A DNA stretch of 64,000 nucleotides from Azolla caroliniana (lineage: Eukaryota; Plantae; Polypodiophyta): the NCBI GenBank assembly GCA_043228905.1, contig JBHGNT010000002.1, positions 17,918,001 through 17,982,000 of the forward strand. Reading direction: 5' to 3'. Below are positions 50-55,962 of this stretch, piece by piece. Numbering within the stretch: position 1 is the stretch's first letter; the number at the start of each line of letters is the position of its first letter. The notes beneath the pieces were generated by a model. It saw only the letters and a program-made list of their open reading frames with translations, had not been told where the DNA came from and searched no databases. A program made the position numbers and the translations under genes.

Positions 50-53
50 TTGA

Positions 54-85
54 AACACCGGGTCATTTAGAATAGGTAATATGTC
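54..85 (+). repeat. Left terminal inverted repeat (32 bp)
   Basis: 27/32 identical to the reverse complement of 6751-6782. Confidence 0.88.
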
Positions 86-897
86 GCATTCCTTTATTGA
101 TAAATACATGAGATGTCAAGAATTACAATTTTTTAACAAACTTTCAAGAATGTATCACGCATGCGCACATGACTTTTAAAAACATCAATAAAAAACACAG
201 TTAATATTATCAAGATTTCAAATTTAACCTATATTTTCTCAATTCATACACATATTTAGCCAAACATTCGCTTGGATTATGAGAATGCTTTCAACTATCA
301 TTGTAATATGCTTCATTTTACATAATGTTGAATTTGAATCCAATTGAACAATTTTAGAAACACAATTTTAATTCTATATTTCTCTCTAACTCCTATAAAG
401 CTTGTTATATTAAATGAGCAAAGTGCATTTTTGGGTATAATTAGACACATATTCACAAGTGAATATCACATTATATACCTCACATGCCCAACAACTTCTA
501 CGGACATTATATCCCAATCATATATGAACAACCTAAATGTAAGATCAAGTGAGCAACAACGTTGACTTAATATTTTTCTGTACACTCGAAATTAAATAAC
601 TAAGATTAAAGAGCTAAAAAATGCTAGAATAAAACTAAATTCAATTATATTAATAAAGAAACAATTATAACCAACATTTGTCATACAATCGATAAGTTCA
701 TCACCATCTATTCAATAAAAATTACACTTAACAACCACATACTTTGTGAGTCAACCAATACAAATATATGATAGACACTTAAAGTTTGCAAACCAATCAG
801 ATAGTGTAAAGAAATGGTACTCAAACAAAATAATCTTATATTCCACAACAAGTTTAGTGTTACAATTTTATAGTTACAAATACAAACTAATATACAA

Positions 898-3800
898 TCA
901 CTCGATTAGGATGTTTGGAACAAGCTGCTCTCCAAGATCAGCTGATAGTGGTGCTGCATGAACATCTTTTGTCCCCTTAGCTGAATCTTGTATATGATCA
1001 GAACTTGATGCATCTTCAAGGTCGAGAAGGCGCCTCCTTTCTCGTCTATAGGTTCCATTGGCTCTCTAGAGGTCATCTGAAACATCTCTATTTCATTGAT
1101 ATGCTTTGCCCCAACCTCTTGGTCTTGGTCGAGACAATCCTAGATGCCTTGGATCCTCATCTTAATAAAATTTTCTTGGTCGGGGTCCTTTTTTAATGCG
1201 ACGTAGTTCCTGAACAGTTTAAGAGCACATGCAGTCATCGTTCCTAAATAAACAATCACACATATAAAAGTAAGAAAAGAAGACAAGAAATAATATTTCA
1301 TTTTAAAAAACATTGATGAAACTTAATAGATTACCTGTTCCAGAAAATAAGCCAAGAACCCAATCATCAAGGTTCGAGAACAACTCGACCAATCGATTAA
1401 TCAATCATTGGGGCTTTTGATAAGGGGTTACTAGACTCTTATCTCTAGGCACGTGGCGCAATTTCTTCGTTACAGTTGGGCACATGATATAGTTGACAAG
1501 GTTTCGCTCATTAACATGTGCCCAAGCCTTCTTCTCAGGAATTGCGTCGTAGTGGCCCACGCACATGTGCTCCACAATGCTCACCATTCGATCACCCAGG
1601 GTACGAGTTATGTTCGTTTTAACCCTATTCTATAATTGAATCGAAACAAGTTAATAAACATGTAGTAAGCAACAAGGAATCCATACATTAAATATATAGT
1701 AACATAATGCTTACCAATGCATATGTTCGGTGGCATGGTATCTCGACTTCAATGCAGTCGTGACCAATAACAACTGACCCATACTATGAAATATAACAAT
1801 AGGCCATAATGGTGCCAGGGTCAGCTCCGCAAAGTCCTTAACCATCTTCACTATTTGCGGATATTTGTATGGCACATCGTCGTATGTTGAGCTTGATATT
1901 CTGAAGCCATACGGTATATCCGCCACGAGCAATGTATAATGTCTCTTGGGTAATATGTCAAGCATATTACCCACATCACCATTATATACACTATAATACA
2001 ATTATCGGAAAGGATCACTCTTGTGCCAAAAGCTTTTTACGATATCCGAGTCCTCAGGCACCTCGAGCTCCTTTCCTTTTGTCATCCGTTTCTCGTATTT
2101 AGCTCGTTCCAAATGGGTGATGAAAGCGCTAGGTATACCTTCATTGTCGTCACTATTCTTCTTTGAACGAGGTGGTTTCTGTAATTATAAATTTTGTAAG
2201 AAGAAACCCATTATCCAAAAATCAAAAGAAACTAAAATTAGAATAAAGAACAAATCAACAAAGCAATCAAATCAAAATGATACATGCACATAGATGACTC
2301 ACTTTTGAAAATCTATGACCATTTCGTCAAGGCTAAACTCCTTGGCGGCCACGCTTGATTAATACAAATATCAATAATATGTCATCCTTAATTCCTTGCA
2401 GTGACCACCAAGGAAGTAGCTTCATATCTTCGGCTAACTCTTCAATTACTAAGTCACTTTTACTTGACTTAGATTTCATCTCCACCTGGGTCAAGCTTAG
2501 CCTTCTTTGATCTTTGTCCCTTTATTTCTTTATGCTCCCACATACTAAAAATGCGATCTTGGAGGTCCCATACCTCCCCTGTTCTAAAGGCAAGTTAAAA
2601 CCACGAGTCATATTTTCTCAAGCCTTCAAACTTGGTGCTTTCGTCAAATGCTATCCCCACTTCAAGTAGACATTGTCGTCACAATCCAGGATGCAGCCAA
2701 GGACCAAACTTTTGCAACGCATCAAGGTACTCGTGATGAAAGAACTTGATGTGCTCGATACATGACATCTTTTGTCTATAGCCGTTATTGTTGTTATGAT
2801 CCCAACTTAACAACTTGGCTTCGTCATGTGTAAGGCATGCATACACTTTACATTTTGCATACTTGAAGAAAGGGGTAAGAGGATACTCCTTGACCAGTTG
2901 ACGTCGGGTTTCAGTAGAGTGGGATCCTCCAATCACATAGTATGTGTAGTCATCTGCCGAAATGTACTTGAAGTCAACAATAGTAGGGCATTGATCTAGG
3001 TCAACCATTACTAAGAATGGCCTAACAGTCGCATGTGGATTAATCTTCATTTTGCTTTTTAAGTTCTGCACATGCAGTGAATGTGGCTCTCTAATTTCTT
3101 CTTCTTGTCTCCAGATCGATGGGTGGCCGTTGAATAGAGCAAATTGGTAAGTGAAATAATTGTCCTTTACGAACAAGCTTCGTCTTTACAATATTTTCTC
3201 TGATCTGGTTATGCTCTGAGGTGAGTATCCCCAATGAAATGTGGCCCCCTAGAGGAATAACTTCGATCTCGGCTTCTTCCTCCTCATCTTCTACGAACTC
3301 GAGGACCTTCGACTCGTCCTCTTCTAGTTGCTACCTTTTCTTGTACTTCTTATGTTCCGGTTTGGACTTCTTAGCAGACTTTGGTGGGGTTGTTGCTTGT
3401 GTGACCATCAGCTCTCCCTTAATGTACGGGTGCAAAGCAACAATCAAGTTGTTTTTTGTCTGAACATCCTTTTTTAGGGCTTTAGGGTGGCAGGAGTCGG
3501 TTATGAAATTACATTCATCGATCTTGACTCTGTGAACCCCCATCGAGCTATCAACATCGAAGAAGAGGTTCGATGAGTCGTTGTCTTCATATTTGATGTT
3601 CCTTACGTAGATGTAGGGGAATGTCTTTCCCACCTGCAACTTGCCTTCACCTTCAGACTTTGCAAGAATAAGGAGGTCCCCTTCTTCCTTGATGTAGATC
3701 AGTGTCCATTCAACTTGGGGGTAGCTGTTCAGGCGAGGCTCCCCACTCTTTTCGCCTAAAGTCTTCATCGTGTTATCGACAAAGGACTTTAAAGTGTCAT

Positions 3801-3916
3801 AACCTCTTGACTCGATAAATGTTTTGCGAGAATCAACTTTCATCATGGTGTCAGAAGGTCTTTTTGTTGGTGACGGAATTTTTAGTTTGAAGGATGGCAC
3901 CTTCTATTGTGGCTCA
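898..3916 (-). pseudogene. Intron-containing ParB/Srx-like + beta-class N6A/N4C DNA methyltransferase (disrupted by stops and frameshifts)
   Basis: Exons about 3916-2303, 2178-1715, 1624-1335 and 1243-~898 with GT-AG introns. Motifs in beta order: YNGDV..LLVADIPYG (motif IV), W|VKTN, PYQKP*LINRLVELFSNLDDWVLGLFSGT|GTMTACALKLFRNYVALKKDPDQENFIKMRI (motif I). Upstream ParB-like IREP..VQNLK..RPFLVMVD..YYVIGGSHS..EAKLLSWDHN (2679-3176). Confidence 0.85.
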
Positions 3917-4199
3917 CTGAAAACAACAAGTCATGACACAAGGATATAACAATAATCTTAATAATAAACAATATAGACCTCTAAACTAAGGTAAAAATTA
4001 GCGAGAATCATACGTTTTTGTATAGAATGTTACATAAAAAACTTGAAGAAATAGACCAAAAAACAACTGCAAAAAATTTGACCAAATCTGATCTATTGAT
4101 CATGAAAAGCCCATTTTTCAACGGGAACAATATAGCCCATCTAAACTAAGGTACCCTTTCCATGCACTGCATCGAGTTCTCATTGAAAGGGACACTCTT

Positions 4200-6487
4200 T
4201 CAACAAGAACTCGATGTAGTGCATTGAGTTTCTTTTGAAAAAGTGACGAACAAGATACATTCTTGATTGCCAATATGCAACTTGTTAAGGACCATCATGT
4301 GGAATATTACCTTTCACTTACTACGAAGAGTTATCAAGTTGCTTTTAAAATTGCTTATAGCATCGGGAACATGAGGCTACAGAGAATTCAACATCGATTA
4401 TTGAAGGGGTGGTGGGTGCCTTTCAACAATTCAGAATCTCCATGTAAGGGCCTGATTGGGTGACATGTTGTTAGATGGATGGAGATTTATTTCTCAAAGC
4501 AATGTGATGTTATGCCCACCACTAGAAGGTTGCATTTGTTAGATAACTTCGCTCGTCGTGAGGTATACCAAGCCTATAAGGATGACATGTTATTGGAAAG
4601 TGTACCTTATATACAATATCGACATTTTAATCGTTTATGAAGATCGTAGTTTAACAATGTGGTCATACCCCGCAAGGTCTGGATGGGTGTTTGTTCGATC
4701 TACGCAAGTTTAAAAAGCTTCGCAAAGAGTGGGACAACAGATGAAGAAATAACAAAATATAAGACTTTATTGAGAGAACATCGAGAAAGCCAAGCGTTGG
4801 AAATATCTAAACCTATGCACCATCGTCAAAAAGCGCTTCAATTGCCAAAAAGATACATGTGCTTGATTATAGATGGGATGGATCAGAAGGAAACTTGTTT
4901 GCCACATTTTGGAAGGTTGCCGAAGGATATTGGAGATGAATGCCTAGTGCAGATGCACTTAGTAGGATGTCTTTTGTATTGTCAGACCATAAGGCCTCAA
5001 GTGTTCTTAACTTATCCAAATATCCACAACGACCCTAATCTTATAGTTACAGTCATGCAAAGAGTTCTACAGAGTTGGCAAGTTTTACTCCCACCAGTAC
5101 GATACGTGCAACTTGACAACACGACGAAAGAAAACAAGAACACAATTGTGTTTGGTTAGCTGAGCATGTTAGTAGACAAGGGTATTTTCAAAAAGATTAA
5201 GGTCAACTTCTTGCTAGTTGGTCATACACATGATCACATAGATCAAATGTGTAGTAGGTTCTCCAAGAAATTAGCGAGGTGTGATGCTTTCACACTTCTT
5301 GTGCTATCAAGGTTGATCGTTAAGGCTTATACCGCCAAGCCAAATGTGCAACATTTAGATGAAGTATATGATTTCAAGCGCTTTTGTTTCGATGGTGATG
5401 GGACTAGCTGTAGGGTTCTTGCTCCGCTTAATAATATAAGTTTTAACCACGTCTTCCTCATCTAAAAAAGTATGGTCGATCACAACCAGACCATGTTATA
5501 TGCCAAACAATACTGATCTAGTTCACAATGGGAGCCACAAGAAGGATGTAGGCTCTTATTGCATTTCCCAAATGCAATAATCTATGGTGTTGAGCAAATG
5601 CCCTATGACGACCATAAAAGATTGGTTGTTGGTAGTTCAATTGAAGAGCAAAAGATATATTGGATGCGGTGCCTTGAGGAAAAACAAAAAAAAATTGAGC
5701 GAATCAAAAAGTACGTTGGTGATCAAGATGTGGATTGGTGGGATGTCTTCTTTAATCATCAACATGCAATATTATTAGATAACCACAAAATCAATTCGAA
5801 TGGGCGCTTGGTGGCCCATCAATGGCAAGCACGACTGCTTTACAATCACTAGATAATCTTGAATTGAATAATCTAGTTCGTCTACGACAAAGAGATATTT
5901 ACGTGGGACCAAGATTATCACAAGTTGCAGAGGCGAGGTGACAAGGCAATCTACATGAGCTACAAGTTGGTATGTTGGTTAAAACATTAGTTGGGGGTGA
6001 TAAGTTGGACCATCCCTTTAGGATTGCCAAAATCATTGAAATTATTAAGGATGATAAAGGCAATCAAGTAATGTCTATTATGGTTCATTGGTATCATACC
6101 TCTTCCAAAGACGCATTTATTGGGAAGTACTCTTTAGAGATGGTTAAGGATGTCGAAGGCACAAGTGGAAAGCGAAGAAGAAAGAATCTACCAAGCACGT
6201 CTACTCTAGCACTTGATAATGTCGACATACTCGTGTATGACTTCTCCTTGACCAAAACATGCCATCTAAGACAGACTACAATCAAGATAATAAAAGAGAA
6301 GATCCCATATGTGCCAATTGACGCAACACAAAGACGAACAAGGAGTGACGTTGGATTGCAATTGGATGAAGACAATGCATTGGTTGCTAGTGATGATAAG
6401 GACGAAACCTCACAAAGCTCTTCTAGTTCATCGGGTGGGTCTGAAGGGGAAGGCGTATATCTAGGAAGTGATGGATCTCATATATGA
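4200..6487 (+). pseudogene. Sola-like (DUF7869-type) DDD transposase with C-terminal BAH/SH3-barrel-like domain, fragmented by stops
   Basis: Collinear ORF pieces with CLIIDGMDQ, VQLDNTTKENKN and FLLVGHTHDHIDQMCSRFS (three acidic catalytic motifs) and an upstream Cys/His remnant. Tail reads HPFRIAKIIEI..IMVHWY. Start coordinate approximate. Confidence 0.78.
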
Positions 6488-6750
6488 AATGTAAATATTG
6501 TATGTTACATCAATATGGTGACTCACAAATATGTATAAATATACATGTTAGTCCTTTTGTAATTTTTGTACGTTCTCTTGTAAATTTCACGTGTCGATTA
6601 TTAGGGGCATTTTTTGAAAGCCCTATATTTTGGACATAGTATAAATCAATATATTTTGATTCAATTTCCAAAACCCTTTATGCATGCGATAGTCCTTTTT
6701 GTGAAATGACCTACTTTGTGCCTTTTTAGGATGAACTGTTCTTAAATTGT

Positions 6751-6782
6751 GACATATTACATGTTTCAAATGACCCTGTGTT
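6751..6782 (-). repeat. Right terminal inverted repeat (32 bp)
   Basis: Partner of 54-85; followed by the TTGA duplication. Confidence 0.88.
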
Positions 6783-8610
6783 TTGAGTATGCTCTTCATA
6801 TTCGGTATGACGGAATGCAAGTACGTCTCAACTCCTTTGGATAGGAATGTGAAGGTCTGCCCCAACTCCGAAACGACATGCGACCCTAAAAGGTTTCGAC
6901 AAATAGTCGAAAGCCTCATATATCTGACCATCACCCAGCCGAACCTCAGTTATCCGGTCGGACTTATTAGTTAATTTATTGCGCATCTAACCGTGTAGCA
7001 CCTTCAATGCGCGCACCGAATACTCAAGTATGTTAGCGGCACTAAGGACAGGGGGTTGCTATATCGAGCCAATACAATCGAAGAACGAGTCGGCTATACG
7101 AATATCAAGTGGGCCGGAAATGTCGACGACCGCAGCTCTATATCTAGATATGCATTCTCACTTGGAAGCGCCGTGGTCGCTTGGAGCAGTAAAAAGCAGC
7201 CGACATTAGCACTATCGAGCACCGAGGAGTGGTTGTCGCAACATGCGAAGCCATATGGCTAAAAAGGTAATCAAGGATCTACGTGTCGAGGTGTCCAATC
7301 CCGTTGTGATCTACTGAGACAACCTCAACAACATCCAGTTGGCGAAGAACCTCGTCTTTCACGCCCAAACAAAACACATTGAGGTGCACTACCATTTTGT
7401 TCGAGATGGTGTTCTCTCTGGTGAAGTGGAACTGCCGCATGTTTTGACGGATCGGTAGGTAGTCAATATCTTCACCAAACCATTTGGCTTAGACAAGTTG
7501 CGACAATTTTCCGGTGTACTAGGTGTGCAATACCTCGATATGTCGAACTTGAGGGGGAGGAATGAGGAAGATGACCGAGTCGGATATTGATTTCGACTTC
7601 GGGCCAACTAAAGAAGCCGGAGTGCACGGGTCGGCCGAGAAAGCTAAGACTAGATGCATGGGGAGCCACTGGAACGGAAAACCCAAACCGGAACCAACCA
7701 AAAATGGGGGAGGCAGAGCTAGAAAGACTGAGATATAGATATGGGCCGATGTCGTGAAAGTTCTGGGAGTTGAAGACGAATCGGAGACGACCGATTCAGA
7801 CGAGAGCAAAAATGAATCTGATGTACCCGATTCAATCGAAATGATCGATTCAGTTGAGCCGAATCTACGATGGGCCAAGCGGACAAAAGGGCAACCTAAG
7901 CCGACGCCGAGACGGAGGAACCAACGGGTCAAGGGATGCCAACAAGGGAGCTGATAAGGGCCAAGGGAACAAACAAGCCGACTGAGAAAGCCAAGATGCG
8001 CGGAACCAAACTTGTCGTGGTAAGCAGAACCGGACCGGACAAGGAGCGCGAGCCAGGTGGGAGAACGTTAGAGGGAGTCGGAGGAGAGGACCAACTACCA
8101 CAAACACTGACACTACAATCTAACGTCAAGTTGAGCTTGAGGGGGAGTCTTGAACGGATCTTACCTCAAGTTGACCTCAACCGGATCTGGATTGGCTGAA
8201 CAAGTCAGAGCCAGATCAGAGTCTAGAACGAAGAACCGGATCGGTATCTGGATGTTATCCGAAACCTAGAACCGGATCAGATTGTAACCTGTAGGCCGTT
8301 AGAGACCTACGAATCTAGCCTAGTACGTAGGCATGTTTTTAGGAGTTGGTGTCAGTTGCTCGTATGAGCGTTGAAGTACTTGTCAGTACTTCTGTCAGTC
8401 CTTTTAAGGACTTGTACAGAAGTGCTCATAGAGCACATTGTATGTACAGAGAGTTTTTAGTAGTTTGGAATATACACGATTTCTGTGTTCTGCTCTAACT
8501 TTGTCTCTCCCGTGTAAGGTTTCCATTAAACCTGTCTGTATTCTTTTGTTATCTAGACGAGCCGGTTTTGTCTTAGCTTCCGCAATCGTATTCTTTTATA
8601 CTTCCCAACT
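6783..8610 (+). mobile_element. Decayed Ty1/copia 3' end: RT/RNaseH, 3' spacer, PPT and 3' LTR (about 8148-8610)
   Basis: FGMTECK..LIYLTITQP, WSSKKQPTLALSSTE and KHIEVHYHFVR. PPT ttgagggggag at about 7548 and again at 8137. LTR limits approximate. Confidence 0.8.
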
Positions 8611-9244: not shown

Positions 9245-9740
9245 GTTAAGGCTCTAATCCTCATGTTAATGAAACTCAGTTGCTCGTCATCCTTTTCTCA
9301 TTCAATAATATTCCTATATAGCTTCAATGTAGATGTAGATGTAGTACCTATTAACAATTTAAAATGAAGATTGCGTTAGCTAAATATAAACTATATTGAT
9401 TTCTAAAGGCATAGCAAACAAAGCTATAATAATCTACCTGAGCCAGAGAACAAATACAATATCCAATCTCTTTCATTGGAGAACATTTCAAATGACAAAT
9501 ATCAATATTAGCTAGAATTCATTGATGGGTAAATCAAAATTCTCTATGTAAGATAAATATTCCTTACCAAACAAGGTTTTGTATCCCATGGCAACAAGAT
9601 CTCAAGGAGTGTGCTACAGGGTATCCTTGGTCCATCCTATGGAATACGATAATTCTCCATAAGGATACAGTCGTCAACTGTGCAAAATCTTTCACCATCT
9701 TCTCAAGTTGTTTGAACCTAAATGATTCATCATCATATGT
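9245..9740 (-). pseudogene. Second, divergent relic of the beta-class amino-methyltransferase
   Basis: TYDDESFRFKQLEKMVKDFAQLTTVSLWRIIVFH..NLVW|gtaag (9740-9568), EMFSNERDWILYLFSGS|G (~9490-9438), GTTSTSTLKLYRNII..EKDDEQLSFINMRI (9347 down). Same two intron positions as the 898-3916 copy. Confidence 0.85.
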
Positions 9741-9741
9741 T

Positions 9742-10548
9742 TGTTAGGGAATAAGTCCCTCCGGATGAGAGCCGAAGGAGCCAAAGGAATTAGACCAGAT
9801 GGAATCGGAGGGTGCCCGGAAATCGGATAAGATGGATCCCGAAGGAGTCTAGCCGGATCCGGTATGAACCAGGAAGTAGGAACATTTTGTAAATATTTTT
9901 AGACGTGACCATTGAGGTCATATTTGTAAATAGTCCATAAGTTATATGAGTATAAATATAACTAGGGCAAATAGTGTTTTACATAGAGGTTGTTATTCTT
10001 ATTGTTGTACAGACATAGAGAGAGAGATATAGTGTGTGAGACACAAAAAGTTTTTCTGTTGTAACCGCCGGTTGGCGAAGACATAGCTCGAGGTCGTTGC
10101 CTCCAAGTCTCCCATTGTATTTTTCTTCTCATAGTGATAGTTGGAGTTTGTGGGCTCCCGTGGTTTTTCCCTCTTAGGGTTTTCCACGTTAACATACTGT
10201 GTTGTCTCATTTTGTTTTCTGTATCTTCCATTGTGTCATTGAGACTCGGTTGTGGCCGAGCACTATTTCCGTACAATCTGGTATCAGATCGAACAACAAA
10301 TGGAAGAGTCATTTGTAAGCATGTTCAAGCCCACCGACTCCAACTACCCAATGTGGAAGTCGAAGATGAGGGACATGCTCGTGGCTAAAGATCTCTAGTT
10401 GTCGGTACAATTCGGGGACAAGAAACCAAACAAAATCGATGCCATGACCTGGGAAGTAATGCATATGAAGAAGACTGCATACATGCGATGCTTCATCGAC
10501 ATGAGCCTATACAACAACTTCAATGAAGAAAGTAAGGCTCATGTGTTA
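9742..10548 (+). mobile_element. Truncated Ty1/copia 5' end: LTR 9742-10275, PBS 10279, gag start 10300
   Basis: TG..CA LTR, tggtatcaga PBS (tRNA-iMet), MEESF..MFK gag start homologous to 54434. Confidence 0.85.
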
Positions 10549-11252
10549 CTAGAGTTATTTCTTGAGCTCCCTTGATATAACTCTAATAACCTACCTGACT
10601 AGGTACTGGTGCATCTTGTACTCTCAAGAATAGGTAATTGTGGACACATGAAAAATTTGAAAATCACGAAGGTGACATAGCACTTAACATCTTTCCAAAT
10701 GGTCAAGGCAAGTCGGACCGCCCATGTCGACACAAAGTATAAGACTGTGGACCGGAAGGTGAGGCTTCAACTACTCGTGGTGGCTCCTTGAGGGTCAACC
10801 ATGGTTAAATGACATCAATTTCTTGTTGTATAGATAATATTATGAAGAGATAAAAAATAAGAAATATTTTATTTTCTTGGTTTTTCTATGGTAATTAGTA
10901 ACAAAGGTAAGTTTAATTAATTCTCATATGGGAATTTTAAACTGATTTTATTTTCTTGTTTCTTACTATGGACAAGATCCAAAGCACAAGTTAAATTTGG
11001 CATATTTTAATTGCCAACGTTACACATCCGCAATAAGAATAGCTCTATGTAAACAAGTAAATGTAAAATCAAAGTGTAATGAACCCAACATGTTTTGATC
11101 TTGGGTTCAAACATTTTTCTTTTACTCTTAACAAATTACGCCTACTACTTAATTAGTGAAAGAGTAGAAATTGAAATACAACGAATAAGTTTCAAAATAC
11201 TGACAGAAACAAAACATTGGATTGTACACAATTCTCTACCCTCATAACATAA

Positions 11253-11334
11253 TGTTTCATTTCAAGGTAATCAATTATGTTTCATTTCAAGGCAATCAAT
11301 TAAGTTTCATTTCAAGGTAATCAATTAAGTTTCA
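11253..11334 (+). repeat. 25-bp tandem repeat, about 3 copies
   Basis: gtttcatttcaagg(t/c)aatcaatta repeated. Confidence 0.9.
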
Positions 11335-53922: not shown

Positions 53923-55962
53923 TGTTGGGAAATCGGTCCCTCCTGATGGGATCCGGTTTTGAATAAAGAGGACCCGGTGAGAACCGGAAGAGAAGACATA
54001 TTTGTAAATATGTTTTGAGTAAGCCTATTGAGGCTATATTTGTAAATAGCCCTAATTTCATATAAGTATAAATATGACTTAGGGCAATCACTTTGATAGT
54101 GTTGTTGTCATATTGTTGTTGATATAACTATTGTATAGCGAGAGAGGAGATATAGAGTGATACTCAGTTGTAACCGCCGCTTAGCGAAGATACAAAGCTC
54201 AAGGTCATTGTCTCCGGGTCTCTAATTGTATCTTTCTTATATATAGTGATAGCTTGGAGTCTATGGGCTCCCGTGGTTTTTCCCATTAGGGTTTTCCACG
54301 TAAGCATTTTGTGTACTCTCTACTTCCCATTTCTGTGTTTCATTCTCATTGAAGTGATTCAAGACTCGGTTGTAGCCAAGCAATATTCCGCACTATTTCC
54401 CTCAAACTGGTATCAGAGCGAACAACATAGGAAATGGAAGAATCGTTCGGCGGCATGTTCAAGCTCACCGGTTCCAACTACTCAGTGTGGAATTCAAAGA
54501 TGAGGGATATGTTGGTGGTTAAAGATCTTTGGTTGCTGGTTCAATTCAGGGACAAGAGACCAGATAAGATTGATGCCGCAATGTGCGAGGTGATGCACAT
54601 GAAGACGATGGCATACATTCGATGCTTCATCGACATGAGCCTATACAACAATTTCAATGAAAAGAGCAAGGCTCATGAACTCTGGGAGAACATCGACATC
54701 ATGTTCCAGAACAAGAATGTTGTTAATCGAGTTTCGGTATTCTGGACGCTAGTGAGGCTCCGGTACCAGGACGGCGCCAGTATGGCGGAGCACATGAATG
54801 CCTTCTAAGGGCTAATACACCAAGAAACCTCGTTGGAAGCACCTCTCGCCGATGAGGTACTCGCATTACTCCTGATCGGTTCCCTCTCGGATAGTTGGGA
54901 GACGCTAGTTGTCATGTTGGGAAACGTCAGGCCAAAAGGAAAGCAGTTGTCCCTAGCAAGGGTAAAATCAAGCTTGCTAGATGAAGAAGCTCGCCGAAAG
55001 GACCGGGAATCCAAAACCAATCCGAAGGCCTTGGTCACGGAAGATGACCACAACGGGGGAAGAGGCCGATATCGGAGTCCCCAAAACCGGGACAAATCGG
55101 GGACGAGGTCAAAATCAAGGGGGAGGCCTACTTGCTTCTATTGTGGGAAGCCGAGGCACTTCCAGAAGAACTGTTGGTATTTCCGGAAAGAGAAAGGAAC
55201 CGATAGTGCCAATTCGAAGACTGGTTCGGACCGGAAGGGAAAGTCTCCGATCGCGACAAGTGAAGAAGAACTGATGCTCATTACCGAGGAGAATGAGTTA
55301 AACCTTGTCGGCGGCGAGACAACGTGAGTTGTCGATTCCAGAGCGTCGTTCCACCTGACACCGGACCGGAGATGCTTCTCATCTTACACAATCGGTGATC
55401 ATGGTTGTGTCCGGATGGGGAATGAAGGAACATGCCAAATTGTCAGCATAGGAGATGTGTTGTTGACAACATCAATCGGATGCAAGTTGCTACTGAAGGA
55501 TGTCTGACACGTTTCGGAGGTTCGGTTGAACCCAATATCAGCATGTTGGCAAGATGATGAAAGCTACACGGGTAGCATCCAGAACAAAGTCAGGAAGTTT
55601 AGCAAAGGAAGCATGATCGTGGCTAGAGCCTGGAAGATCAACACATTGTATCTGATGCATGCCCGGATATGTCGGGAAGAAGTGAAATGTAGCATCTGAC
55701 ACTGCCGGTGAGTTGTGACACAAAAGACAGTGTCACATGAGTGAGAAGGGGATGAAGAGACTTGCCGAAGACAATCTCATTCCGTTGAAGGACATGCAAC
55801 TTGAGAAGTGCAATGATTGCTTGGCCGGCAAGCAAAACCGAGCCTCCTTCAGGTCAAGACCATTGATGAGACGGAATGCACCACTGGAGCCGGTGCATAC
55901 CGATGTGTATCAAGTGGACACGAAGTCACAAGCTGGATCGCAGTACTTCGTGACGTTCATAG

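What the first reader, a model, noticed from the sequence alone, without database searches (positions are those of the whole stretch)
54..6782. Cut-and-paste DNA transposon carrying its own ParB-fused N6A/N4C DNA methyltransferase
Seen: 32-bp TIRs, a TTGA duplication and a clean insertion in a copia RT delimit one unit. It holds a DDD transposase (+) and a divergent spliced gene with ParB-like and beta-class amino-MTase motifs (-). Known: beta-class amino-MTases are typical of bacterial restriction-modification and phage systems. The eukaryotic cases I know are the bdelloid N4CMT, the Marchantia sperm 4mC MTases and Dam-like domains in DIRS retroelements. I know of no description in a Sola-like plant TIR element. 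Inference: a mobile epigenetic module that marks its own DNA or chromatin (self-recognition, anti-silencing or targeting), and a possible vehicle for 4mC/6mA writers in land plants. This copy is dead.
Basis: partly seen in the sequence, partly recalled or inferred. Interest (0 to 1): 0.95.

Follow-up and report, generated by a model that had tools for sequence, protein, structure and literature searches.

The report
Plant Sola1 transposon with ParB-methyltransferase cargo
This is a dead copy of an abundant cut-and-paste transposon, likely from a fern, whose second gene fuses a predicted ParB-like DNA-binding domain to a bacterial-type DNA methyltransferase that would mark the element's own DNA; the same design is already published for a brown-algal transposon, so what is new here is its presence in land plants.

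Summary
Window 54-6782 has 35-bp TIRs (29/35 match) and a TTGA duplication, and sits inside a copia RT gene. It holds a broken DUF7869 (Sola1-type) transposase (+) and a broken spliced gene (-). In models of relatives, that gene's domains fold like ParB and like beta-class N6-adenine methyltransferases (CcrM, BceJIV). It is not a one-off capture: one independent contig shows the same head-to-head layout, a phased palindrome array lies between the genes in five relatives, the cargo is under purifying selection, and homologues occur in Chara, Riccia, Adiantum, Diphasiastrum and Ginkgo. It is not new in kind: PMC12477816 describes Ectocarpus Sola1-1_Ec32 with an opposite-strand ParB-like + N4C/N6A methyltransferase gene, similar termini and a 4-bp TSD, and proposes self-marking; red-algal Plavaka elements pair a ParB-like gene with inverted-repeat arrays. 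My searches found no land-plant report. The DIPY motif points to 6mA, not a link to Marchantia or rotifer 4mC enzymes. Activity and expression are untested. This scan already noted the family at least eight times in this genome.

The parts
50..53 (.). Left target-site duplication TTGA
54..88 (+). Left TIR, 5'-AACAC terminus
   Evidence: 29/35 to the right TIR; 32/35 to the right end of L003
898..1243 (-). Cargo gene, last exon: end of MTase motif I region plus acidic tail; stop at 1142-1140 and frameshift near 1030
1335..1624 (-). Cargo exon with motif X (PYQKP) and motif I (LFSGTG at 1350); in-frame stop at 1407-1405
1715..2178 (-). Cargo exon with catalytic motif IV (DIPY at 1920); in-frame stop at 2004-2002
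2179..2302 (-). Collapsed intron: phase-2 donor, phase-0 acceptor; a conserved exon of about 45 aa is probably lost
2303..3846 (-). Cargo first large exon: N-terminal region of unknown fold, ParB/Srx-like domain (IGGSHS at 2933) and helical region; stops at 3333-3331, 2681-2679, 2597-2595; frameshifts near 3100-3120, 2487 and 2356
4159..4227 (.). Remnant of the palindrome array: two units with core GATGCA-N-TGCATC at 4161 and 4213, 52 bp apart; intact relatives have 4-5 units
4236..4243 (.). Junction of an internal deletion of about 800 bp that removed the later palindromes and the transposase N-terminus
4243..6487 (+). DUF7869 Sola1-type DDD transposase pseudogene (DGMD 4872, QLDN 5109, HTHD 5223); 7 in-frame stops and a 19-bp deletion near 5771-5781; intact relative L003:604-3369 is a 922-aa ORF
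6748..6782 (-). Right TIR
6783..6786 (.). Right target-site duplication TTGA
9247..9743 (-). Second, diverged remnant of the MTase gene (48% aa over 110 codons; last intron in the same position), cut at about 9746 by what appears to be an LTR element

Best explanation
This is a dead copy of a multi-copy Sola1-type cut-and-paste transposon family, likely of a fern, whose intact members carry a conserved second gene predicted to encode a ParB-like domain fused to a beta-class DNA amino-methyltransferase that likely binds the palindrome array between the two genes and would methylate the element's own DNA, most likely at adenine N6. Shown: boundaries, both genes, head-to-head layout, palindrome array, purifying selection, folds (from predicted models of relatives). 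Inferred: (1) the transposase excises and inserts the unit, giving 4-bp TSDs; (2) a ParB-like dimer recognises the two-fold symmetric sites, which are spaced 40-42 or 51-52 bp apart (about 4 or 5 helical turns) and so would lie on one face of the helix; (3) the tethered MTase marks nearby element DNA, including the shared promoter region; (4) the mark helps the element keep expression or be recognised in a host that silences transposons with 5mC. This is the model already proposed in print for Ectocarpus Sola1-1_Ec32 and, for a ParB-oxygenase gene, Bostrychia Plavaka.
For: Layout repeated in an independent contig: L012 has the cargo N-terminal exon on - (623-6), five palindromes (955-1139) and the transposase on +. 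All 5 loci (of 18 fetched) that reach 600 bp or more upstream of an intact transposase start carry 2-5 palindromes; 200 resampled elements give 0.27 on average, maximum 3. Cargo under purifying selection: window vs L012 pN 0.22 with pS saturated (0.97) over 199 codons; copy 1 vs copy 2 MTase exons pN 0.30, pS 0.86 over 110 codons; transposase control dN/dS 0.11-0.16. Motif IV is D-[ILVFA]-P-[YF] in 64 of 90 hits that cover it, SPPY in 0. The MTase model (P0100) matches CcrM (E 3e-13), M.BceJIV and M1.HpyAVI first, rotifer N4CMT lower; a profile search agrees (8e-16 vs 2e-6). The model of P0285 (84% identical to this copy) matches ParB/Noc (E 1e-5) and PadC (Z 10.0, rmsd 2.8 over 100 residues). 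Relatives of both genes are abundant in 4 of 4 DNA runs. Named cargo homologues (Chara, Riccia, Adiantum, Diphasiastrum, Ginkgo) overlap the plant taxa with transposase homologues (Chara, Riccia, Adiantum, Ceratopteris, Ginkgo). A Chara-like cargo and a Chara-like transposase both come from JGI contigs of 8,915 bp. Published precedent.
Against: No enzyme activity, binding, methylome or transcript is shown. Locus tags of annotated cargo and transposase genes in Chara, Riccia and Adiantum were not adjacent in any pair seen (closest: CBR_g34350 and CBR_g34382, both on a 1,482,100-bp contig). The ParB arginine patch (GxxR, recalled) reads GGSHS in most hits, so CTP clamping may be lost. This copy carries a 5mC-type decay signature (CHG sites 8 of 23 mutated, CHH 9 of 266, but CG only 1 of 24), so protection failed here. 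Streptophytes lack AMT1-type abundant 6mA (bioRxiv 10.64898/2026.05.21.726589, passages), so a host reader of the mark is unknown. In L012 the cargo is much more diverged from this copy than the transposase is (pS 0.97 vs 0.43), which suggests module swapping or a chimeric contig.
Confidence: 0.55

Rival explanations
1. The cargo is a sequence-specific DNA-binding accessory protein that acts like VANC of VANDAL: it binds the array and blocks or reverses host silencing, or steers integration. The MTase domain serves as a DNA-binding or base-flipping scaffold, and methyl transfer is incidental.
For: VANC anti-silencing proteins bind tandem motifs in their own element (PMC5735166, abstract and outline). 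The first proline of motif IV is replaced in every family member seen, and some homologues read DIPH, DLPR or NIPY. A passage on TE-borne DAMs discusses why a heterologous assay may have failed. ParB-like genes with repeat arrays also occur fused to an oxygenase rather than an MTase.
Against: Motifs IV, X and I and the whole Rossmann core are kept from Chara to ferns. Many of the variant motifs come from fragments that may be decayed copies.
Confidence: 0.2
2. The enzyme writes 4mC (or marks a non-self target such as host or competing elements) rather than 6mA on its own array.
For: PF01555 covers both chemistries; N4CMT and PvuII are among the fold hits; the Ectocarpus paper leaves 4mC vs 6mA open; 4mC exists in a land plant.
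Against: No serine in motif IV in 90 hits; the best structural and profile matches are N6A enzymes.
Confidence: 0.12
3. The palindromes are not sites for the cargo; they are bidirectional-promoter elements or transposase/host-factor sites, and the cargo acts elsewhere.
For: The array lies between two divergent genes, where a promoter must be. No binding was tested.
Against: Phased perfect palindromes beside a ParB-like gene recur in unrelated elements (Bostrychia Plavaka); they are far from the termini where a transposase would be expected to bind.
Confidence: 0.1
4. Neutral or one-off capture of a host or bacterial gene (Pack-MULE-like).
For: L002 shows a transposase fragment joined to host-gene exons, so chimeras occur.
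Against: Purifying selection, a second diverged copy in the window, 174 representative-level homologues at E<=0.001 and the same design in a brown alga.
Confidence: 0.03

Closest known systems
Sola1-1_Ec32 of Ectocarpus (PMC12477816; passages of the main text and one row of supplementary file 1 seen)
   Same: Sola1 DNA transposon; second gene on the strand opposite the transposase; ParB-like domain fused to an N4C/N6A MTase; AAC... termini (AACCG there, AACAC here); 4-bp TSD biased to end in A (TTGA here); self-marking proposed.
   Different: 21.5 kb with 282-bp TIRs and a 1104-aa cargo, against about 7-8 kb with 35-bp TIRs here. Brown alga against a land plant with 5mC silencing. No palindrome array is mentioned in the main text (0 hits for 'palindrom'). 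Sequence homology of the two cargo proteins was not tested.
Plavaka (EnSpm) elements of Bostrychia, PAG2/PAG3 (bioRxiv 10.1101/2025.02.11.637652; passages; supplements closed)
   Same: DNA transposon with a PF01555 methylase gene and a ParB-like gene (their best HHpred hit 7BNR is also my best Foldseek hit), with tandem inverted repeats beside the ParB-like gene and the same self-binding proposal.
   Different: Different superfamily; MTase is fused to SET, and ParB to a 2OG oxygenase, in separate genes.
Cibotium barometz Sola1 cluster_4009 (PMC12973397 Table S2 rows)
   Same: Fern; AACACC termini, 26-bp TIR, 4-bp TSD, 19 recently active copies; classed Sola1.
   Different: No cargo annotated; the stored sequence cell is cut at about 400 bases, and sequences of clusters 4008 and 4009 look swapped, so its cargo could not be checked.
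DAM-carrying DIRS/LTR retrotransposons (bioRxiv 10.64898/2026.05.21.726589; abstract, first third of Results, passages)
   Same: Transposon-borne prokaryote-type adenine MTase thought to favour the element's expression.
   Different: Retrotransposons; different MTase family as described; DAM-LTRs reported absent from Streptophyta; no ParB domain or array reported in what I read.
Phage ParB_N + N6_N4_Mtase fusions (ParB-Tls loci; PMC4738411 passages; Atlas clusters)
   Same: Same domain order; MTase domain hits 94 phage records at about 25-27% identity and phrog_67/498.
   Different: The ParB-like part had no tblastn hit in phages at E<=1; Atlas scores 0.86-0.87 are leads only; direct descent of the fusion is not shown.
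VANDAL/VANC of Arabidopsis (PMC5735166; abstract and outline)
   Same: Plant DNA transposon with an accessory protein that targets repeats in its own sequence.
   Different: VANC removes 5mC and is not described as an MTase; Mutator-like element (recalled).
MpDN4MT1 (Marchantia) and bdelloid N4CMT
   Same: Beta-class amino-MTases of prokaryotic origin in eukaryotes.
   Different: TSPPY motif in MpDN4MT1 and 4mC chemistry; host genes; no ParB term in the Marchantia preprint.

Membership tests
Sola (Sola1) DNA transposons | 4-bp TSD and TIRs (PMC10741241 passage) | tested here: met
   TTGA/TTGA, TIR 29/35
Sola (Sola1) DNA transposons | DDD transposase | tested here: met
   DUF7869 E=1e-43; DGMD, QLDN, HTHD motifs conserved in intact relatives. 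That these three aspartates form the triad is inferred.
Sola (Sola1) DNA transposons | Placement with reference Sola1 transposases (Repbase) | not testable with these tools
   No Repbase here. Indirect: elements with like termini are classed Sola1 in PMC12973397 and PMC12477816.
Sola1-1_Ec32-type elements with ParB-MTase cargo | Opposite-strand gene fusing ParB-like and N4C/N6A MTase domains inside a Sola1 element | tested here: met
Sola1-1_Ec32-type elements with ParB-MTase cargo | Common descent of the cargo protein with the Ectocarpus one | not tested
   None of the 29 distinct proteins looked up by name was from Ectocarpus; most hits are unnamed.
Beta-class DNA amino-methyltransferases (PF01555) | Circularly permuted order: motif IV first, motifs X and I near the C-terminus | tested here: met
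   DIPY at 1920 precedes LFSGTG at 1350 on the - strand
Beta-class DNA amino-methyltransferases (PF01555) | Fold | tested here: met
   Foldseek on a model of relative P0100: CcrM E 3e-13, HpyAVI TM(target) up to 0.84
Beta-class DNA amino-methyltransferases (PF01555) | [DNSH]PP[YFW] catalytic motif (PMC4738411) | tested here: inconclusive
   D-x-P-Y/F with a hydrophobic residue in place of the first proline in 64 of 90
Beta-class DNA amino-methyltransferases (PF01555) | SAM-dependent DNA methylation | not testable with these tools
   needs an assay
4mC writers MpDN4MT1 / N4CMT | Serine in motif IV (SPPY) | tested here: not met
   0 of 90; TSPPY in MpDN4MT1
ParB/Srx superfamily | ParB N-terminal fold | tested here: met
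   Foldseek ParB/Noc E 1e-5; VIA Z 10.0 to PadC, top 8 rows all ParB/Srx-type
ParB CTPase clamps | GxxR arginine patch (motif recalled) | tested here: not met
   IGGSHS in 37 of the motif matches, GGGH in Chara-type; no arginine at that place
ParB CTPase clamps | HTH domain that binds a palindromic site | tested here: inconclusive
   Helical region 207-373 aligns to KorB/ParB DNA-binding domains only at Z about 4
DAM-TEs (DIRS / DAM-LTR) | Retrotransposon with RT | tested here: not met
   TIR element with DDD transposase; the RT is the flanking target
Starship auxiliary DUF3723 | PF12520 match | tested here: inconclusive
   Atlas look-alike 0.96 on a part of P0285; no Pfam hit at E<=5

The most novel reading that the evidence does not exclude
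An ancient streptophyte lineage of Sola1 transposons, inherited from a Chara-like ancestor into liverworts, lycophytes, ferns and Ginkgo, runs a eukaryotic ParB/parS-like system: a ParB-fold dimer loads on a phased palindrome array and guides a fused methyltransferase to write 6mA on the element. This would be an element-encoded source of genuine, sequence-targeted 6mA in land plants that lack AMT1. Its ParB-like domain may be kin to the DUF3723 genes of fungal Starships, making 'ParB-like protein plus palindrome array' a general self-recognition module of eukaryotic transposons.
Probability: 0.3. Interest if true: 0.72.

Novelty: new member of a known kind. Interest (0 to 1): 0.42.

Why it matters
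The design is in print for algae but untested anywhere in what I read. A land-plant family with recently active relatives (19 near-identical copies of a like-ended Sola1 in Cibotium), a defined palindrome and a host with ordinary 5mC silencing makes two open questions testable: whether eukaryotic DNA transposons write their own DNA mark, and whether true enzymatic 6mA exists in land-plant genomes. A ParB-guided MTase with its own site could also serve as a targeted epigenome-editing part.

Tried and rejected
No whole genome is held and loci could not be extended, so no TIR-bounded copy census or consensus was possible. Word-indexed search of the MTase part among longer proteins found nothing; phmmer of it against PDB found nothing. 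Viral contigs gave no relative for P0003, the transposase or P0100; prokaryote genomes gave none for P0285 or the transposase. No RNA holder was listed. Two runs guessed to be RNA gave 3 and 0 contigs and no splice joint: no evidence on expression either way. The first structure model left the ParB region below pLDDT 50, so a second model with 66 sequences was made. Locus-tag adjacency in annotated genomes was inconclusive. Summed contig depth is not a copy number and is not used as one. BAH for the transposase C-terminus: no Pfam hit. The Cibotium sequence is cut in the supplement. Literature searches: (N6A, ParB, methyltransferase, transposon, eukaryotes), (N4-methylcytosine, Marchantia...), (Sola, transposon, fern, methyltransferase), (DNA transposon, N6_N4_Mtase, plant), (DUF3723, ParB), (Sola1, transposase, TSD, DDD), (DUF3723, Starship), (6mA, fern...), (ParB-like, DNA transposon, methyltransferase, Chara braunii), (Bostrychia...). 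None showed a land-plant description; led to the Ectocarpus paper. Iyer, Abhiman and Aravind 2011 (its ref. 50) and the original Sola paper were not read and may cover more. The two trees are a quick IQ-TREE (24 hand-picked of 113 hits plus the window) and a FastTree (16 rows), unrooted by test; no donor or order of events is claimed.
Full report
Observation. The element spans 54-6782. Its ends match as inverted repeats at 29 of 35 positions and are flanked by TTGA on both sides. Removing it restores a copia reverse-transcriptase frame, and contigs from 3 of 4 DNA runs join the two flanks. Two other loci end in the same terminus with different flanks. The boundaries are therefore real and exact.

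Transposase. The + strand 4243-6487 encodes a DUF7869 protein (E=1e-43) with seven in-frame stops and a frameshifting deletion. Metagenome contigs gave 18 related loci, including an intact 922-aa ORF in L003. Against these, the window copy lacks about 800 bp at 4240, including the start of the gene. The nearest named homologue is from Ceratopteris (57%), followed by Riccia, Adiantum, Chara and Ginkgo; a quick tree puts the window in a well-supported clade with Ceratopteris and unnamed ENA sequences. The host is therefore likely a fern, which is an inference. Sola is defined by a DDD transposase and 4-bp TSD (PMC10741241 passage), and a Cibotium element with like termini is classed Sola1 (PMC12973397 Table S2).

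Cargo gene. The - strand gene runs from about 3846 to 898 with GT-AG introns at 1714-1625 and 1334-1244 and a collapsed intron at 2302-2179 whose phases do not match, implying a lost exon. It has at least six stops and four frameshifts. A phmmer search found 174 representatives at E<=0.001. Of 20 scanned, 11 pass the PF01555 cut-off; named ones are from Chara, Ginkgo, Adiantum, Riccia and Diphasiastrum. A model of a full-length relative matches beta-class N6-adenine MTases best (CcrM E 3e-13), as does a profile search. A model of P0285, 84% identical to this copy, has pLDDT mostly above 85 over the domain and matches ParB/Noc by Foldseek (E 1e-5) and PadC, KorB and sulfiredoxin by VIA-align (Z 10.0, 8.2, 7.6). 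Motif IV reads D-hydrophobic-P-Y/F in 64 of 90 hits and never SPPY. The ParB signature reads GGSHS, without the arginine recalled for CTPase ParBs. The ESM Atlas lists fungal DUF3723 as the closest look-alike of the ParB-like part (0.96); DUF3723 is a conserved Starship cargo (bioRxiv 10.1101/2021.12.13.472469, passages). Pfam did not confirm this, so it is a lead.

Is the cargo a regular part of the family? L012 carries the cargo's first exon, five palindromes and the transposase in the same head-to-head order. Synonymous sites are saturated while replacement sites are not, both against L012 and against the second remnant at 9247-9743. Contig depth at 80% likeness is in the thousands over both genes in run X1, against 31-41 for near-identical single-locus pieces; the tool warns that this is no copy number. 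A Chara-like cargo and a Chara-like transposase both come from 8,915-bp JGI contigs, probably one contig. Against this: linkage was read directly on one contig only, annotated genes in three genomes were not adjacent, and L012's cargo is far more diverged than its transposase (pS 0.97 vs 0.43), which may mean module exchange or a chimeric assembly.

Palindromes. Earlier notes of this scan pointed me to an array, and I tested it. Units with core GATGCA-N-TGCATC occur 4, 5, 5, 2 and 2 times in L001, L003, L012, L006 and L007, i.e. in all five loci that extend far enough upstream of an intact transposase start; resampled sequence gives 0.27 per element. Spacings are mostly 40-42 or 51-52 bp, with one of 64 and one of 109. 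Symmetry extends about 11 bp each side. The window keeps two units.

Mechanism. The most likely reading is that a ParB-like dimer binds the phased palindromes and positions the MTase to mark the element, probably with 6mA, in the shared promoter region. Every functional step is inferred. This copy decayed with a CHG-biased C-to-T pattern (8 of 23 CHG, 9 of 266 CHH, 1 of 24 CG sites), as expected for a silenced copy. Rivals are a VANC-like binder with incidental catalysis, a 4mC or non-self target, and palindromes that serve a promoter.

What is known. [quoted passage not shown] Its supplement gives AACCG termini and a 4-bp TSD biased to end in A. The Bostrychia preprint describes Plavaka elements with a PF01555 gene and a ParB-like gene beside tandem inverted repeats, with the same proposal. 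The architecture, the array idea and the model are thus in print. In ten literature searches I found no land-plant case; I did not read Iyer et al. 2011 or the Bostrychia supplements, which may bear on this. A link to MpDN4MT1 or N4CMT is not supported by motif IV.

Verdict. Real, well delimited and a selected part of a plant Sola1 family; a new member, in a new host group, of a published but untested kind. This scan has noted the same family at least eight times in this genome. Interest 0.42.

Noticed in passing
window 9247-9743 (-): Second, diverged remnant of the MTase gene with the last intron in the same position; cut at about 9746 by a repeat that recurs at 53970-54677 and looks like an LTR. 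Its ParB part, transposase and TIRs were not found in the window.
   Followed up: partly
L002:140-540: A 5'-truncated transposase is joined to spliced host-gene exons that resemble a plant amidohydrolase (label recalled; no Pfam hit). Insertion in an intron, gene capture or chimeric assembly.
   Followed up: partly
window 54-88 vs L003:3624-3658: The left TIR is more like the right end of another subfamily (32/35) than like its own right TIR (29/35); with the cargo/transposase divergence mismatch in L012 this hints at chimeric elements.
   Followed up: partly
window 5780-6487 (+): The transposase has a conserved C-terminal domain of about 150 aa with no Pfam match, followed by an acidic tail; fold not predicted.
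   Followed up: no
window 3400-3846 (-): An N-terminal region ahead of the ParB-like domain is conserved in relatives (P0320, P0326, P0352, P0357) and has no family match.
   Followed up: no
window 11249-11334: Three tandem copies of a 25-bp unit.
   Followed up: no
PMC12973397 Table S2, rows 3204-3205: Representative sequences of cluster_4008 (moss) and cluster_4009 (Cibotium) appear swapped relative to their TIR columns; moss Sola clusters are 10.9-11.2 kb, leaving room for cargo.
   Followed up: no
P0023 (Chara), P0027 (Diphasiastrum): One Chara gene model holds two ParB-MTase units in tandem; a Diphasiastrum model joins an MTase exon to a cytochrome P450, probably an annotation fusion.
   Followed up: no
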